Both the position numbers and the translations under genes were made by a program. Below, in pieces: positions 5,007 through 16,284 of a stretch of 23,274 bases of DNA (the first letter of the stretch is position 1; each line of letters opens with the position of its first letter). The notes below the pieces were generated by a model. It had not been told where the DNA came from, searched no databases, and saw only the letters and a list, made by a program, of their open reading frames with translations. The DNA lies in IMG/VR virus record IMGVR_UViG_2571042372_000002; one strand, given 5' to 3'. The stretch is from a virus (lineage: Duplodnaviria; Heunggongvirae; Uroviricota; Caudoviricetes).

Positions 5007-6501
5007 TCTTTCACACATTATTGCCGCAGCATTCAATGAACCGCTGCTTCTGGAGCCCGCCTATGCGCGGGTTTTCTTTTGCGCGCTCGGGCGCGAGATG
5101 GGGGCAGCAAGTCTTTCGGTACCACAACAGCAGGTACAGTTTGATGCTCCCGGAATGCTGGCTGAAACGGACGAGTACATGGCCGGAGGTAAACGACCGG
5201 CCCGTGTTTACCGGGTGGTGAACGGTATTGCTGTACTGCCGGTGACCGGCACGCTGGTGCACCGGCTGGGTGGTATGCGGCCATTTTCCGGAATGACAGG
5301 CTATGACGGCATTGTCGCCTGTCTTCAGCAGGCAATGGCGGATAGCCAGGTGCGGGGCGTACTGCTGGACATTGACAGTCCGGGCGGGCAGGCCGCCGGC
5401 GCGTTTGACTGCGCTGACATGATTTACCGCCTCCGTCAGCAGAAGCCGGTCTGGGCACTGTGCAATGACACGGCCTGTTCTGCAGCCATGCTGCTGGCGT
5501 CGGCCTGCTCCCGACGGCTGGTTACCCAGACATCCCGTATCGGCTCCATTGGCGTGATGATGAGCCATGTCAGCTATGCCGGTCATCTGGCGCAGGCCGG
5601 TGTGGATATCACGCTGATTTACTCAGGGGCGCACAAGGTGGATGGCAATCAGTTTGAAGCGTTGCCGGCAGAGGTTCGCCAGGACATGCAGCAGCGGATT
5701 GATGCGGCGCGCCGGATGTTTGCCGAAAAAGTGGCGATGTATACCGGTCTGTCTGTTGATGCCGTCACGGGAACAGAGGCTGCCGTTTTTGAAGGTCAGT
5801 CCGGCATTGAGGCCGGGCTGGCGGATGAATTAATCAATGCGTCGGATGCCATCAGTGTGATGGCCACGGCGCTGAACAGTAATGTCAGAGGAGGTACTAT
5901 GCCGCAATTAACTGCAACGGAAGCCGCCGCGCAGGAGAACCAGCGAGTGATGGGGATCCTGACATGCCAGGAAGCGAAAGGACGTGAACAGCTTGCCACG
6001 ATGCTGGCAGGACAACAGGGCATGAGCGTTGAACAGGCCCGGGCGATTCTGGCCGCGGCGGCACCGCAGCAGCCGGTGGCATCCACGCAGAGTGAAGCCG
6101 ATCGCATTATGGTGTGTGAAGAAGCGAACGGTCGTGAACAACTGGCGGCAACGCTGGCGGCGATGCCGGAGATGACGGTGGAAAAAGCCCGCCCGATCCT
6201 GGCTGCTTCACCGCAGGCGGATGCCGGACCATCACTCCGTGATCAGATCATGGCACTGGATGAGGCAAAAGGGGCTGAGGCGCAGGCTGAACAGCTGGCT
6301 GCCTGCCCGGGAATGACAGTGGAGAGCGCCCGGGCTGTGCTGGCTGCGGGATCAGGTAAGGCAGAACCGGTCTCTGCATCCACAACCGCCATGTTTGAAC
6401 ATTTCATGGCGAACCATTCACCGGCAGCGGTACAGGGTGGCGTGGCACAGACGTCAGCAGACGGTGATGCGGACGTGAAAATGCTCATGGCCATGCCATG
6501 A
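4996..6501 (+). CDS. C: head maturation protease / minor capsid protein C (S49 ClpP-like peptidase; lambda gpC homolog), extended C-terminus
   Basis: GTG start at 4996 overlapping the B stop. N-terminal half (FNEPLLLEPAYARVFFCAL, VVNGIAVLPVTGTLV, GAFDCADMIYR, RRLVTQTSRIGSIGVMM, ITLIYSGAHKVDGN) is collinear with lambda C. 501 aa versus 439 aa in lambda, owing to extra repeats in the C-terminal scaffold part. Confidence 0.9.
   Translation: MRRNLSHIIAAAFNEPLLLEPAYARVFFCALGREMGAASLSVPQQQVQFDAPGMLAETDEYMAGGKRPARVYRVVNGIAVLPVTGTLVHRLGGMRPFSGMTGYDGIVACLQQAMADSQVRGVLLDIDSPGGQAAGAFDCADMIYRLRQQKPVWALCNDTACSAAMLLASACSRRLVTQTSRIGSIGVMMSHVSYAGHLAQAGVDITLIYSGAHKVDGNQFEALPAEVRQDMQQRIDAARRMFAEKVAMYTGLSVDAVTGTEAAVFEGQSGIEAGLADELINASDAISVMATALNSNVRGGTMPQLTATEAAAQENQRVMGILTCQEAKGREQLATMLAGQQGMSVEQARAILAAAAPQQPVASTQSEADRIMVCEEANGREQLAATLAAMPEMTVEKARPILAASPQADAGPSLRDQIMALDEAKGAEAQAEQLAACPGMTVESARAVLAAGSGKAEPVSASTTAMFEHFMANHSPAAVQGGVAQTSADGDADVKMLMAMP
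5899..6501 (+). CDS. nu3: scaffolding protein Nu3 (in-frame internal start within C)
   Basis: Perfect AGGAGG (5889-5894) 4 nt upstream of ATG 5899, in frame with C, at the position equivalent to the lambda Nu3 start. Product MPQLTATEAAAQENQRVMGIL... contains the lambda Nu3-like motif (RIMGILNCEEAHGRE... in lambda). Confidence 0.7.
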   Translation: MPQLTATEAAAQENQRVMGILTCQEAKGREQLATMLAGQQGMSVEQARAILAAAAPQQPVASTQSEADRIMVCEEANGREQLAATLAAMPEMTVEKARPILAASPQADAGPSLRDQIMALDEAKGAEAQAEQLAACPGMTVESARAVLAAGSGKAEPVSASTTAMFEHFMANHSPAAVQGGVAQTSADGDADVKMLMAMP

Positions 6502-6537
6502 AGTCAGTGCTGACCATCAATAGGAGGTTTTTACAAT

Positions 6538-6885
6538 ATGGTGACGAAAACCATCACTGAACAGCGTGCGGAAGTACGTATTTTTGCCGGTAATGATCCG
6601 GCTCATACCGCCACAGGCAGCAGCGGGATTTCCTCGCCAACACCGGCACTGACGCCCCTGATGCTGGATGAAGCCACCGGGAAACTGGTGGTCTGGGACG
6701 GACAGAAAGCCGGTAGTGCGGTTGGCATACTGGTACTGCCGCTTGAAGGCACAGAGACGGCGCTGACGTATTACAAGTCGGGAACCTTTGCGACGGAGGC
6801 AATCCACTGGCCTGAAAGTGTGGATGAACACAAAAAGGCCAACGCCTTTGCTGGCAGTGCCCTGAGTCACGCGGCGCTGCCGTAA
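6538..6885 (+). CDS. D: head decoration protein (lambda gpD homolog)
   Basis: 115 aa; NDPAHTATG, TPLMLD, KLVVWDG, AVGIL, TYYKSGTF, KANAFAG match lambda gpD. AGGAGG SD at 6523-6528. Confidence 0.92.
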   Translation: MVTKTITEQRAEVRIFAGNDPAHTATGSSGISSPTPALTPLMLDEATGKLVVWDGQKAGSAVGILVLPLEGTETALTYYKSGTFATEAIHWPESVDEHKKANAFAGSALSHAALP

Positions 6886-6903
6886 CACGTTATCAGGCCA
6901 CCG

Positions 6904-6923
6904 CGGTGGCCTGACTGATTTCT
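6904..6923. repeat. perfect 20-bp palindrome CAGGCCACCGCGGTGGCCTG in the D-E intergenic region (RNA stem-loop candidate)
   Basis: Read directly: the 20-mer equals its own reverse complement. It lies between the D stop (6885) and E start (6943). No T-run follows, so it is not a canonical intrinsic terminator. Confidence 0.5.
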
Positions 6924-6942
6924 GAATGAAAGGAACTGATTT

Positions 6943-7971
6943 ATGGGATTGTTTACGACCCGCCAGTTACTCGGTTATACCGAACAAAAAGTTAAATTTC
7001 GTGCGCTGTTTCTGGAGCTGTTTTTCCGCCGTACGGTGAATTTCCATACCGAAGAGGTGATGCTGGACAAAATTACCGGAAAAACGCCGGTGGCGGCCTA
7101 TGTCTCCCCGGTTGTTGAAGGAAAAGTGCTGCGTCATCGTGGTGGTGAAACCCGCGTGTTGCGTCCGGGCTACGTCAAGCCGAAACACGAATTTAATTAC
7201 CAGCAGGCGGTTGAGCGCCTTCCTGGTGAAGATCCATCTCAACTGAATGATCCGGCTTACCGCCGTCTGCGTATCATTACCGATAACCTCAAACAGGAAG
7301 AGCACGCGATTGTCCAGGTGGAAGAAATGCAGGCGGTAAATGCTGTGTTGTATGGCAAATACACCATGGAAGGAGACCAGTTCGAGAAAATTGAGGTCGA
7401 TTTTGGCAGGTCGACGAAGAATAACATCACTCAGGGTAGTGGTAAGGAGTGGTCAAAACAGGATCGTGACACGTTCGATCCTACACATGATATTGACCTC
7501 TACTGCGACCTGGCCAGCGGTCTTGTGAATATTGCCATTATGGACGGTACCGTCTGGCGTCTTCTGAATGGTTTTAAGCTGTTCCGCGAAAAACTGGATA
7601 CCCGTCGCGGTTCAAATTCTCAACTCGAAACGGCAGTGAAAGATCTGGGCGCAGTGGTGTCCTTCAAGGGGTATTACGGCGATCTGGCCATTGTGGTGGC
7701 GAAAACGTCTTATATAGCAGAAGACGGTATCGAAAAACGTTATCTTCCAGATGGCATGCTGGTTCTGGGGAATACTGCTGCAGATGGGATCCGTTGTTAC
7801 GGTGCCATTCAGGATGCTCAGGCGTTGTCCGAAGGTGTGGTGGCCTCTTCCCGTTATCCGAAACACTGGCTGACGGTAGGGGATCCCGCCCGTGAATTTA
7901 CCATGACGCAGTCCGCGCCGCTGATGGTGTTGCCGGACCCGGATGAGTTTGTGGTGGTACAGGTGAAATAA
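6943..7971 (+). CDS. E: major capsid protein (lambda gpE homolog)
   Basis: 342 aa versus 341 aa in lambda, same position after D. N-terminal region (TTRQLLGYTEQKVKF..LFLELFFRRT) resembles lambda E (MSMYTTAQLLAANEQKFKFDPLFLRLFFRES). Confidence 0.93.
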   Translation: MGLFTTRQLLGYTEQKVKFRALFLELFFRRTVNFHTEEVMLDKITGKTPVAAYVSPVVEGKVLRHRGGETRVLRPGYVKPKHEFNYQQAVERLPGEDPSQLNDPAYRRLRIITDNLKQEEHAIVQVEEMQAVNAVLYGKYTMEGDQFEKIEVDFGRSTKNNITQGSGKEWSKQDRDTFDPTHDIDLYCDLASGLVNIAIMDGTVWRLLNGFKLFREKLDTRRGSNSQLETAVKDLGAVVSFKGYYGDLAIVVAKTSYIAEDGIEKRYLPDGMLVLGNTAADGIRCYGAIQDAQALSEGVVASSRYPKHWLTVGDPAREFTMTQSAPLMVLPDPDEFVVVQVK

Positions 7972-7978
7972 TCCGTGA

Positions 7979-8008
7979 GCGGGGGCGAAATGCCCCCGTG
8001 TCTTTTTT
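7979..8008 (+). terminator. intrinsic-terminator-like hairpin immediately after the major capsid gene
   Basis: CGGGGGC-GAAAT-GCCCCCG (7-bp GC stem) followed by TGTCTTTTTT, starting 8 nt after the E stop and ending before the FI ATG at 8023. Confidence 0.6.
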
Positions 8009-8022
8009 CACAGGGGGCTGAT

Positions 8023-8406
8023 ATGGCAACGAAAGAGCAAAATCTGAAACGTCTTCGTCAACTGGCTGACCTGCTGGGGCGCGAGGCGGATATATCCGGG
8101 AGTGCCGCAGAGATAGCGCAGCGGGTGGCAGAATGGGAAGAGGAGCTTGCTGTTTCCCCGGAGGGCATTATGCACTCTGATGAGAGCGGGGCTGATCAAA
8201 ATCACACAGACGATGGTGAGCAGTTGAACAACACGGATGCTCCGGATGATGTTAAAGCCGTCCGGGTACGGAAGTGCCTGCAAGTAATGGGGTATTGCCC
8301 GGAGACAGGTCGTCCCGTTGAGCTGGCGTTACGGGGTATGCGTGTTCTGGTGCCATCATCACTGGCAACGGCCATGATACAGCACGGAATGGCTGTTTAT
8401 GCGTGA
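8023..8406 (+). CDS. FI: DNA packaging / head assembly protein FI homolog
   Basis: Position between E and FII. Start placed at ATG 8023 with AGGGGG SD, giving 127 aa (about 132 aa in lambda), because the upstream GTG 7975 would put the terminator hairpin inside the coding region. Sequence is diverged from lambda FI; assignment is mainly by synteny and size. Confidence 0.7.
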   Translation: MATKEQNLKRLRQLADLLGREADISGSAAEIAQRVAEWEEELAVSPEGIMHSDESGADQNHTDDGEQLNNTDAPDDVKAVRVRKCLQVMGYCPETGRPVELALRGMRVLVPSSLATAMIQHGMAVYA

Positions 8407-8752
8407 TTTTCAGAATGCCTTTGATGCCGCCCTTGCCGGGGTGGACAGTACGATTGTTGAAGTGATGGGCATCAGTGCGCAGTTCACCTCCGGTGCACAG
8501 CGTGGCGGCGAGGTTCATGGCGTTTTTGACGATCCGGAGTCGCTGGGTTTTGCCAGTAGTGGGATCCGTATTGAAGGAAGTAACCCGTCATTATTTGTGC
8601 TTACGGATACGGTTTGTGCTGTACGGCGTGGTGACACGCTGACCATTAACGGCGAGATGTTCTGGGTGGACCGTGTTTCTCCGGATGACGGAGGGAGTTG
8701 TTATCTCTGGCTCAACCGGGGGCAACCACCTGCAGTTAACCGGCGACGATAA
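8399..8752 (+). CDS. FII: head-tail connector protein FII homolog
   Basis: 117 aa; C-terminal ...RGDTLTINGEMFWVDRVSPDDGGSCYLWLNRGQPPAVNRRR is near-identical to the lambda FII C-terminus as recalled. Overlaps the FI stop. Confidence 0.92.
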   Translation: MRDFQNAFDAALAGVDSTIVEVMGISAQFTSGAQRGGEVHGVFDDPESLGFASSGIRIEGSNPSLFVLTDTVCAVRRGDTLTINGEMFWVDRVSPDDGGSCYLWLNRGQPPAVNRRR

Positions 8753-16240: not shown

Positions 16241-16258
16241 TGCAAAATGTTTTATGTG

Positions 16259-16284
16259 AAACCGCCTCCGGGCGGTTTTATCGT
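16259..16284 (+). terminator. terminator-like hairpin between I and J
   Basis: AAACCGCC-TCCG-GGCGGTTT (8-bp stem) followed by TATCGTTTAT, in the 60-nt I-J intergenic region, 17 nt upstream of the J ATG. Confidence 0.45.

What the first reader, a model, noticed from the sequence alone, without database searches (positions are those of the whole stretch)
6904..6923. Perfect 20-bp palindrome between decoration (D) and major capsid (E) genes
CAGGCCACCGCGGTGGCCTG equals its own reverse complement and would form a stable 9-10 bp RNA stem directly after the D stop. It lacks a U-tract, so it is more likely an RNA processing or stability element (RNase III site, 3' protection) or a protein-binding palindrome than a terminator. 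It also contains a CCGCGG (SacII-type) core.
Basis: seen in the sequence. Interest (0 to 1): 0.35.

Follow-up and report, generated by a model that had tools for sequence, protein, structure and literature searches.

The report
Conserved hairpin between decoration and capsid genes
The palindrome is real, and it is the phage 21 version of a hairpin found between the head-decoration and major-capsid genes of almost all lambda-type phages; in lambda it looks like a standard terminator, so this is an ordinary though functionally untested element.

Summary
The palindrome exists, but at 6893-6914 (22 bp perfect, TCAGGCCACCGCGGTGGCCTGA), 10 bases left of the stated coordinates. It lies 7 nt after the shp/D stop and 28 nt before the gene 7/E ATG of a phage 21-type prophage. 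As RNA it folds into a 9-bp stem with a 4-nt loop (-16.8 kcal/mol).

It is not a one-off. Of 57 distinct D-E junctions from lambda-type head modules (capsid protein identity 28-100%), 50 carry a strong hairpin at this position. In lambda it is a canonical intrinsic terminator (GC stem plus U7). The stems share a GGCCRC/GYGGCC core and covary.

In the phage 21 lineage, three compensatory pair swaps turned the stem-proximal U's into stem, leaving a broken tail (CUGAUUUCUG). Within that lineage the basal stem is about 8 times less variable than synonymous sites. The CCGCGG apex is the most variable part, so the SacII core and perfect central symmetry are incidental.

RNase III, dispersed-repeat, operator and RBS-insulator readings find no support. 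The most likely function is a terminator-derived intercistronic RNA hairpin, read through by Q-modified polymerase, acting as a 3' exonuclease barrier and at most a weak terminator. That function is inferred, not shown. Interest is low.

The parts
6538..6885 (+). shp / D-type head decoration protein gene (stop TAA 6883-6885), the upstream cistron
   Evidence: ORF; 100% identical to phage 21 shp; Pfam HDPD E=1.2e-24
6886..6892 (+). 7-nt spacer (CACGTTA) between the stop codon and the stem; a ribosome terminating at the stop would reach the base of the stem (inference)
   Evidence: nearly invariant in 69 haplotypes
6893..6914 (+). The 22-bp perfect palindrome, an RNA hairpin: 5' arm 6893-6901, loop 6902-6905 (CGCG), 3' arm 6906-6914; -16.8 kcal/mol
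   Evidence: conserved position and covariation; basal 8 bp pi 0.011 against apex 6901-6906 pi 0.168
6915..6942 (+). AU-rich, almost invariant spacer holding the degenerate U-tract (CTGATTTCTG, 6915-6924) and the gene 7 Shine-Dalgarno (AGGA, 6931-6934)
   Evidence: pi 0.008, about 10 times below synonymous sites; T-tail score 1.11
6943..7971 (+). gene 7 / E-type major capsid protein gene, the downstream cistron
   Evidence: Pfam Phage_cap_E E=6e-64
7979..8009 (+). Sister element: hairpin gcgggggcGAAATgcccccgt (7979-7999, -16.8 kcal/mol) plus GTCTTTTTTC, 7 nt after the gene 7 stop and before FI (ATG 8023); also conserved with different stems across the family
   Evidence: FI start

Best explanation
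The palindrome is the phage 21-lineage form of an ancestral intercistronic hairpin. That hairpin sits between the head-decoration gene (D/shp, Pfam HDPD) and the major-capsid gene (E/gene 7, Pfam Phage_cap_E) of lambda-type head operons.

In lambda and most enterobacterial relatives the element has the anatomy of an intrinsic terminator: a GC stem followed by U7-8. In the phage 21 lineage, three base pairs were replaced by compensatory changes (AAA...UUU became UCA...UGA at the base, and G-C became A-U near the top). The result is a strong hairpin (-16.8 kcal/mol) followed by a broken U-tract (CUGAUUUCUG).

Proposed mechanism. During lytic growth the late operon is transcribed by Q21-loaded RNA polymerase. 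The Q nozzle on its RNA-exit channel prevents terminator hairpins from forming, so the site is read through. The hairpin then folds in the polycistronic mRNA behind the polymerase. There it acts as a structural barrier to 3'-to-5' exonucleases, protecting the shp/D cistron and defining decay intermediates. A matching conserved hairpin after gene 7 would do the same for the capsid cistron. On polymerases that lack Q, it is at most a weak terminator or pause site.

Shown here: existence, position, deep conservation, covariation, purifying selection on the stem but not the loop, single-copy status, and the degenerate U-tract. Inferred, not shown: read-through (from the published Q mechanism), the exonuclease-barrier role (by analogy with intercistronic stabiliser hairpins), and weak termination.
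For: Identity of the locus: 100% identical to phage 21 shp-gene 7; Pfam HDPD and Phage_cap_E.

Conservation of the hairpin. 50 of 57 distinct D-E junction sequences, drawn from 140 loci with capsid identity 28-100% and including alphaproteobacterial prophages whose upstream gene is also HDPD, carry a perfect-stem hairpin of -11 kcal/mol or better in the spacer. Six of the other seven are single-mismatch or indel derivatives. The background rate of such hairpins in the window is 0.073 per 100 nt.

Shared ancestry. The GGCCRC/GYGGCC core is common to phage 21, Gifsy-1 and lambda.

Covariation. 90.6% of cells are paired against 35-62% when partners are slid. 18 cells have changes on both sides against 5.4+-2.6 in shuffles (0 of 500). 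The phage 21 clade differs on both sides at three pairs, columns 1/28, 6/27 and 12/21.

Within-lineage constraint (69 haplotypes). Basal stem pi is 0.011 against 0.081 at third codon positions; apex pi is 0.168.

U-tract. T-tail score is 1.11 in the phage 21 clade against 2.4-4.2 in the lambda clade.

Other support. The hairpin is stable in a 301-nt context. A second conserved hairpin follows the capsid gene stop across lineages, and every intergenic gap of 50 nt or more in the window's late operon holds one strong hairpin. The Q21 and Q-lambda nozzle precludes terminator-hairpin formation (bioRxiv 10.1101/651190; PMC9388147). Intra-operon terminators in lambdoid late operons are acknowledged as common and of unknown role (PMC8022706).
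Against: There is no transcript-end, half-life or termination-efficiency data for this site in any source I could search, so the functional step is analogy only.

The whole intergenic region, not just the stem, is highly conserved within the phage 21 lineage. Low stem diversity alone is therefore not specific to pairing.

Single-mismatch variants that weaken the stem to between -5.8 and -9.6 kcal/mol exist in prophages. The Providencia relatives lack any hairpin here. The element is therefore dispensable at least in some contexts or in decaying prophages.

Hairpins in the window do not follow only abundant-protein genes: one follows I, and none follows the major tail gene V. This weakens a simple 'stabilise the most needed mRNAs' story.

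In the lambda clade the U-tract is strictly conserved. That could mean termination itself is the selected activity in the family.
Confidence: 0.5

Rival explanations
1. It is a working, leaky intrinsic terminator or insulator. It stops RNA polymerases not modified by Q (read-through past tR', or spurious initiation inside the prophage), keeping the capsid gene silent in lysogens, and it is simply bypassed during lytic growth.
For: The orthologous element in lambda and about 20 other lineages has full terminator anatomy, with a strictly conserved U7-8 run. The phage 21 site passes a lenient terminator scan, with 5 T in 8 nt. Its UUU lies 5-7 nt after the stem, the usual release distance (sequence; inference). 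PMC8022706 proposes exactly this role, or partial termination, for intra-operon terminators in lambdoid late operons. A comparable insulating terminator is described for Tn916 (PMC11658703, listed).
Against: In the phage 21, Gifsy-1 and Trabulsiella L094 lineages the U-tract is interrupted (T-tail 0.5-1.1) while the stem is kept and even strengthened by compensatory changes. This is not what selection for termination predicts. Partial termination between D and E would also work against their roughly 1:1 stoichiometry in the capsid (established lambda biology, from my own knowledge).
Confidence: 0.25
2. It is a selectively neutral relic. It would be the leftover terminator of an ancient insertion of the decoration gene as a 'moron' (gene plus terminator) between the scaffold/protease and capsid genes, with no present function.
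For: The hairpin always travels with the 3' end of an HDPD-family gene. Mismatch variants and one hairpin-less lineage exist. The role of such elements is acknowledged to be unknown (PMC8022706).
Against: The stem has persisted, with its sequence turning over but pairing kept, across lineages whose capsid proteins are only 28% identical. Basal stem diversity is about 8 times below synonymous diversity, while the loop evolves freely. A neutral 22-bp palindrome would decay.
Confidence: 0.1
3. It is an RNase III (or other endonuclease) processing site that cuts the late mRNA between the D and E cistrons.
For: It is a stable intercistronic stem, and lambda uses RNase III elsewhere (sib, N leader; my own knowledge). 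Two RN|WUU-type RNase E-like motifs (GA|UUU) lie in the single-stranded spacer just downstream at 6917-6921 and 6938-6942 (sequence). About 0.4 would be expected by chance, so this is only weakly suggestive.
Against: The helix is 9 bp, whereas RNase III substrates are typically about two helical turns (established knowledge). No longer duplex involving this region appears in the 301-nt MFE or centroid. There is no Rfam family match.
Confidence: 0.06
4. It acts at the DNA level, as a palindromic binding site for a dimeric protein, a restriction (SacII/CCGCGG-type) target, or a copy of a dispersed extragenic palindrome.
For: It has perfect dyad symmetry including the centre. One common variant (CCATGG) keeps that perfect symmetry through a double substitution.
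Against: The centre is the most variable part, and two common variants (CCGCGT, CCGCGC) break the symmetry. Relatives have asymmetric loops. No further half-sites occur in the window beyond chance: 3 matches against 2.2 expected, two of them the palindrome itself. CCGCGG is not depleted or enriched, with 6 observed against 9.3 expected. The 43-nt element occurs in 1,865 of 5,426 E. coli genomes, and in all 40 sampled rows it lies at the end of a head decoration gene, so it is not dispersed.
Confidence: 0.03
5. It is a translational insulator. By locking up neighbouring sequence it would keep the gene 7 ribosome-binding region single-stranded for very high initiation rates.
For: The hairpin sits at a fairly constant 16-38 nt from the capsid ATG across lineages, followed by an AU- or U-rich spacer that is almost invariant within the lineage.
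Against: In partition-function folds of 6740-7040, the mean unpaired probability of 6928-6948 is 0.406 for the wild type. It is 0.408 with the hairpin deleted and 0.41-0.49 with either arm shuffled or complemented, so there is no predicted benefit.
Confidence: 0.06

Closest known systems
The lambda D-E intercistronic terminator-like hairpin (NC_001416 about 6097-6125: AAAGGCCGC CTGT GCGGC TTTTTTT)
   Same: Same position, between an HDPD-family decoration gene and a Phage_cap_E capsid gene. It shares the GGCCRC/GYGGCC stem core, a 9-bp stem and a 4-nt loop, and lies in the same late operon read by Q-modified polymerase.
   Different: Lambda has an uninterrupted U7 run directly after the stem and a weaker stem (-11.7 kcal/mol). 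Phage 21 has a stronger stem (-16.8 kcal/mol), three compensatory pair swaps, a self-complementary loop and a broken U-tract (CUGAUUUCUG). Neither element is annotated in the GenBank or RefSeq records I read.
Intra-operon predicted terminators of lambdoid (P22-like) late operons, as discussed for phage L (PMC8022706)
   Same: A GC hairpin inside a single-promoter, antiterminated late operon at the edge of the procapsid gene block. The authors state the role is unknown and suggest partial termination or blocking non-antiterminated transcription.
   Different: Those are in a different, non-homologous head module (P22-type) and were called as canonical rho-independent terminators. The phage 21 element fails the U-tract criterion.
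Intercistronic mRNA-stabilising stem-loops of polycistronic operons (e.g. the REP hairpins between malE and malF; my own knowledge)
   Same: A stable stem-loop just downstream of a cistron whose product is needed in large amounts, with no requirement for a U-tract. The proposed action is a block to 3' exonucleases.
   Different: It is single-copy and phage-specific, not a dispersed REP family. No experimental evidence for accumulation of upstream mRNA exists for this element.
Canonical intrinsic (rho-independent) terminators
   Same: A GC-rich 9-bp stem, a 4-nt loop, and a location a few nucleotides after a stop codon.
   Different: It lacks a contiguous U-tract abutting the stem, with T-tail score 1.11 against 2.4-4.7 for canonical examples in the same family and window.

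Membership tests
Lambda-family D|E intercistronic hairpin (orthologous element) | Lies in the spacer between an HDPD-family decoration gene and a Phage_cap_E major capsid gene | tested here: met
   Pfam hits for both flanking genes; same arrangement in 140 loci, including alphaproteobacterial ones
Lambda-family D|E intercistronic hairpin (orthologous element) | Simple GC-rich stem-loop with the shared GGCCRC/GYGGCC core, pairing kept through compensatory change | tested here: met
   Alignments A1 and A3; 90.6% paired, with double-sided changes exceeding all 500 shuffles
Intrinsic (rho-independent) terminator | GC-rich hairpin, stem about 5-14 bp, loop 3-8 nt | tested here: met
   9-bp stem (6 GC pairs), 4-nt loop, -16.8 kcal/mol
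Intrinsic (rho-independent) terminator | Contiguous U-tract immediately 3' of the stem | tested here: not met
   Tail is CUGAUUUCUG; T-tail score 1.11 against 2.4-4.2 in the lambda clade and 4.69 for the canonical terminator after J in this window. It passes only a lenient scan of 5 T in 8 nt
Intrinsic (rho-independent) terminator | Measured release of transcripts by RNA polymerase at the site | not testable with these tools
   No transcript-end data were accessible; literature searches found none
RNase III processing site | Double-stranded RNA of roughly two helical turns (about 20 bp), often with internal loops | tested here: not met
   Only 9 bp; no extended duplex in the 301-nt MFE or centroid
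Dispersed extragenic palindromes (REP/BIME-like) | Many copies scattered in intergenic regions of the genome | tested here: not met
   Single copy in the window; in E. coli genomes a median of 1 place per genome, and all 40 sampled places lie at the end of a head decoration gene
Palindromic protein-binding operator / restriction target | Conserved symmetric recognition sequence, usually repeated or functionally placed; conservation of the site core | tested here: not met
   The CCGCGG core is the most polymorphic segment (pi 0.168); no additional half-sites; CCGCGG frequency unremarkable
Intercistronic mRNA stabiliser hairpin | Stable stem-loop 3' of a cistron, independent of a U-tract | tested here: met
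Intercistronic mRNA stabiliser hairpin | Upstream mRNA segment accumulates with 3' ends at the hairpin and has a longer half-life, dependent on the stem | not testable with these tools
   Needs Term-seq or a rifampicin chase on an induced lysogen and stem mutants
Rfam RNA families | Covariance-model match | tested here: not met
   No hit at the site at E up to 10 in 6000-8500

The most novel reading that the evidence does not exclude
The two conserved hairpins bracketing the major capsid gene, one after D and one after E, would be a deliberate post-transcriptional device of lambda-type head operons. They would carve the 20+ kb late transcript into discrete, exonuclease-resistant decoration and capsid mRNA segments, setting the roughly 1:1, 400-copy output of these two proteins independently of transcription. 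In this reading the U-tract is an optional ancestral remnant, kept in lambda and lost in phage 21. A side possibility is that the hypervariable, symmetry-preserving apex reflects hairpin-templated mutation.
Probability: 0.2. Interest if true: 0.45.

Novelty: new member of a known kind. Interest (0 to 1): 0.2.

Why it matters
The practical value is modest. The work gives the correct coordinates and shows that a very common prophage element, present in about a third of complete E. coli genomes, is an unannotated, structurally conserved hairpin rather than a restriction or operator site.

More generally, the comparative data show that a hairpin between the decoration and capsid genes, and another after the capsid gene, are conserved from enterobacterial to alphaproteobacterial lambda-type head modules, while the U-tract comes and goes. 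This sharpens an old, unresolved question that the literature still describes as 'roles not known': why do antiterminated late operons carry internal terminator-like hairpins? Phage 21 (hairpin without a U-tract) and lambda (hairpin with one) form a natural experimental pair for separating termination from RNA-stability functions.

Tried and rejected
(1) Rfam scan of 6000-8500 at E up to 10 gave nothing at the site.

(2) RBS-insulator idea: partition-function folds of the wild type against deleted, shuffled and complemented arms showed no loss of accessibility of the gene 7 initiation region, so I rejected it as unsupported.

(3) Dispersed-repeat or operator idea: the half-site search in the window found no copies beyond chance, and all 40 sampled E. 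coli hits lie at the decoration-gene end. Rejected.

(4) SacII or restriction-avoidance idea: CCGCGG occurs 6 times against 9.3 expected, and the core is not conserved. Rejected.

(5) L047 first looked like a mosaic junction carrying a different hairpin, which would have been independent evidence. It proved to be an IS200-type transposase insertion with its own end hairpin, so I excluded it as evidence. It still sits, misaligned, in alignment A3, where it only lowers the pairing score.

(6) Literature: ten full-text searches and several direct look-ups found no paper describing this junction hairpin or mapping transcript ends there. Liu et al. 2013 on lambda ribosome profiling and the Casjens and Hendrix 2015 review are not held. 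Only the general statement in PMC8022706 and the Q-nozzle papers were usable.

(7) GenBank and RefSeq annotations of phage 21 (M81255, OL657228) and lambda (NC_001416, J02459) carry no feature at the site.

(8) Antisense function: on the minus strand the same hairpin is followed by TAACGTGTTACGG, which has no T-tract, so a bidirectional terminator is unlikely (sequence).

Full report
OBSERVATION. CAGGCCACCGCGGTGGCCTG occurs once, at 6894-6913, and the perfect palindrome extends to 22 bp (6893-6914, TCAGGCCACCGCGGTGGCCTGA). The stated 6904-6923 is 10 bases too far right. It is the only perfect palindrome above 12 bp in the window. None of 300 first-order Markov simulations reached 22 bp, and 7 reached 20 bp. 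As RNA it forms a 9-bp stem with a CGCG loop, -16.8 kcal/mol in isolation. The stem is present in the MFE and centroid structures of both a 91-nt and a 301-nt context.

CONTEXT. The window is the late (head and tail) operon of a phage 21-type lambdoid prophage. The shp-gene 7 region is 100% identical to phage 21 (M81255, OL657228), and the whole window is 97.8% identical to phage PhiR57_1. The hairpin starts 7 nt after the TAA of shp (D-type decoration protein, Pfam HDPD). It ends 28 nt before the ATG of gene 7 (E-type major capsid protein, Pfam Phage_cap_E). No feature is annotated there in either phage 21 record, or at the equivalent place in either lambda record. No Rfam family matches.

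COMPARATIVE ANATOMY. I used an alignment of three capsid proteins to pull 139 related loci from viral and genome collections. I then extracted the sequence upstream of the capsid ATG, which gave 57 distinct junctions with capsid identity from 28% to 100%. Fifty carry a perfect-stem hairpin of -11 kcal/mol or better in the spacer. Six of the remaining seven are single-mismatch or indel derivatives of the same hairpin. Only the Providencia relatives, with a 25-nt spacer, have none. Comparable hairpins occur at 0.073 per 100 nt in the window as a whole.

In lambda and about 20 other enterobacterial lineages the element is a textbook intrinsic terminator, for example lambda AAAGGCCGC-CUGU-GCGGC-UUUUUUU, with T-tail scores of 2.4-4.2. 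In the phage 21 lineage the stem is stronger but the tail is CUGAUUUCUG (score 1.11). Gifsy-1 and a Trabulsiella prophage also have interrupted tails. The architecture reaches alphaproteobacterial prophages whose upstream gene is also an HDPD protein.

The stems share a GGCCRC/GYGGCC core, so they are homologous rather than convergent. On a 24-sequence alignment, 90.6% of cells pair, against 35-62% when partners are slid by 1-3 columns. Eighteen cells have changes on both sides, against 5.4+-2.6 in shuffles (0 of 500). The phage 21 clade differs on both sides at three pairs. Two caveats apply: the hairpins were located with a hairpin finder, so the percentage paired is inflated by construction, and the three phage 21 rows represent one lineage. 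Those three swaps (AAA...UUU to UCA...UGA at the base, G-C to A-U near the top) are what turned the stem-proximal U's of the ancestral terminator into non-U stem residues. Pairing was preserved while the U-tract eroded.

WITHIN-LINEAGE VARIATION. Among 69 distinct 705-nt haplotypes of the phage 21-type module, nucleotide diversity is as follows:
- third codon positions of shp and gene 7: 0.081 and 0.080
- the basal 8 bp of the stem: 0.011
- the stem-to-ATG spacer: 0.008
- the six apical bases 6901-6906, which are exactly the CCGCGG 'core': 0.168

Common variants are CCGCGT (loop widened to 6 nt, -13.0 kcal/mol), CCATGG (still a perfect 22-bp palindrome, -15.8), CTGCGG and CCGCGC. Rare variants carry one stem mismatch. 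A conserved stem with a free loop is the signature of an element selected for its fold. It argues against the SacII site or the exact dyad centre having any meaning. CCGCGG is not unusual in frequency in the window, with 6 observed against 9.3 expected.

RIVALS TESTED.
- Dispersed repeat or operator: no extra half-sites in the window beyond chance. The 43-nt element is present in 1,865 of 5,426 complete E. coli genomes, and in all 40 sampled rows it lies at the end of a head decoration gene.
- RNase III: the helix is only 9 bp, and no longer duplex forms in context.
- RBS insulator: deleting, shuffling or complementing the arms does not reduce the predicted single-strandedness of the gene 7 initiation region, 0.406 for the wild type against 0.408-0.49 for mutants.
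- Bidirectional terminator: there is no T-tract on the other strand.

RELATED ELEMENTS. A second hairpin lies 7 nt after the gene 7 stop (7979-7999, -16.8 kcal/mol, followed by GUCUUUUUUC). It is likewise conserved across the family with different stems, for example lambda AUGGCCC-UUCG-GGGCCAU. In the window, every late-operon intergenic gap of 50 nt or more (D-E, E-FI, I-J, after J) contains one strong hairpin. They do not follow only abundant-protein genes: one follows I, and none follows the major tail gene.

MECHANISM. Late transcription in phage 21 depends on Q21, which forms a nozzle on the RNA-exit channel that precludes terminator-hairpin formation (bioRxiv 10.1101/651190; PMC9388147). 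During lytic growth the site should therefore be read through, and the hairpin should fold only in the released mRNA. The literature acknowledges intra-operon terminators in lambdoid late operons as common and of unknown role, suggesting partial termination or blocking of non-antiterminated transcription (PMC8022706).

In the phage 21 lineage the hairpin was kept and strengthened by compensatory change while the U-tract decayed. Termination between D and E would also work against their roughly equal, very high copy numbers in the capsid (my own knowledge of lambda). For these reasons I favour a U-tract-independent RNA-level role: a barrier to 3'-to-5' exonucleases that protects the decoration-gene segment, with at most weak termination of unmodified polymerase. 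This step is inference by analogy with intercistronic stabiliser hairpins and has no direct evidence. The terminator/insulator reading is the main rival (0.25). A neutral relic of an ancient 'gene plus terminator' insertion is less likely, given the stem constraint (0.1).

VERDICT. However, the element is the orthologue of lambda's terminator-like D-E hairpin, and the RNase III, protein-binding and SacII suggestions are not supported. It is a new, unannotated member of a known kind, the intra-operon terminator-type hairpins of lambdoid late operons. Interest is low (0.2). The only mildly novel angle is the family-wide conservation of hairpins bracketing the capsid gene while the U-tract is facultative.

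Noticed in passing
window 7979-8009: A second strong hairpin (gcgggggcGAAATgcccccgt, -16.8 kcal/mol) plus GTCTTTTTTC lies 7 nt after the gene 7/E stop. It is conserved with different stems across lambda-type modules (lambda: atggcccTTCGgggccat), so the capsid gene is bracketed by hairpins family-wide.
   Followed up: partly
window 16256-16281 and 19802-19821: Two further intergenic late-operon hairpins. One lies between the I-like and J-like tail genes (-16.9 kcal/mol). The other is a canonical terminator (gggcgccaGAAAtggcgcct + TTTTTATTT, T-tail 4.69) after the J-like gene. Every gap of 50 nt or more in the operon holds one hairpin.
   Followed up: no
window 6901-6906: The apex of the palindrome is about twice as diverse as synonymous sites. 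The adjacent double change GC to AT at 6903/6904 (10 haplotypes) keeps the 22-bp palindrome perfect (CCATGG). This could reflect hairpin-templated (quasipalindrome) mutation or recombination; recurrence was not tested.
   Followed up: partly
L047 1-440 (IMGVR_UViG_2654587509_000011): An IS200-type Y1 transposase ORF (39-308; Pfam Y1_Tnp) and its terminal hairpin (390-408) abut the D-E junction. Identity with the window resumes at ATTTCTGAATG, just 3' of where the palindrome would be. The contig starts inside the IS, so the left junction is unseen.
   Followed up: partly
window 7975-8406: The mechanical ORF starting at GTG 7975 over-extends the FI-like packaging gene across the post-E hairpin. 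The annotated and Pfam-supported start is ATG 8023.
   Followed up: yes
L097-L112, L130-L138 and others (genome-contig hits): Short contigs carry a capsid-gene match at lambda's level of identity in assemblies of unrelated organisms (Bradyrhizobium, Kitasatospora, Paenibacillus, Neobacillus, Shewanella, an Akkermansia MAG and others). 23 loci share lambda's exact 100-nt junction sequence. This is almost certainly lambda control-DNA contamination of those assemblies.
   Followed up: no
MT713136.1 (Aeromonas phage AP1) 250152-250310: A 159-nt stretch 99.4% identical to gene 7 of this window lies near the end of a 254-kb Aeromonas phage record with no annotated feature. It is probably an assembly contaminant or chimera.
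   Followed up: no
window 5795-5822 and about 5966-6360: The strongest hairpin in the window (-20.6 kcal/mol, 11-bp stem) lies inside the C/Nu3-type protease-scaffold gene. M81255 annotates three roughly 110-bp 'Tri box' repeats of unknown function in the same gene.
   Followed up: no
L092/L093 (Providencia alcalifaciens) 355-386: This is the only lineage found whose decoration-capsid spacer (25 nt) has no hairpin at all, although it keeps a hairpin after the capsid gene. It is a natural 'knock-out' for comparison.
   Followed up: partly
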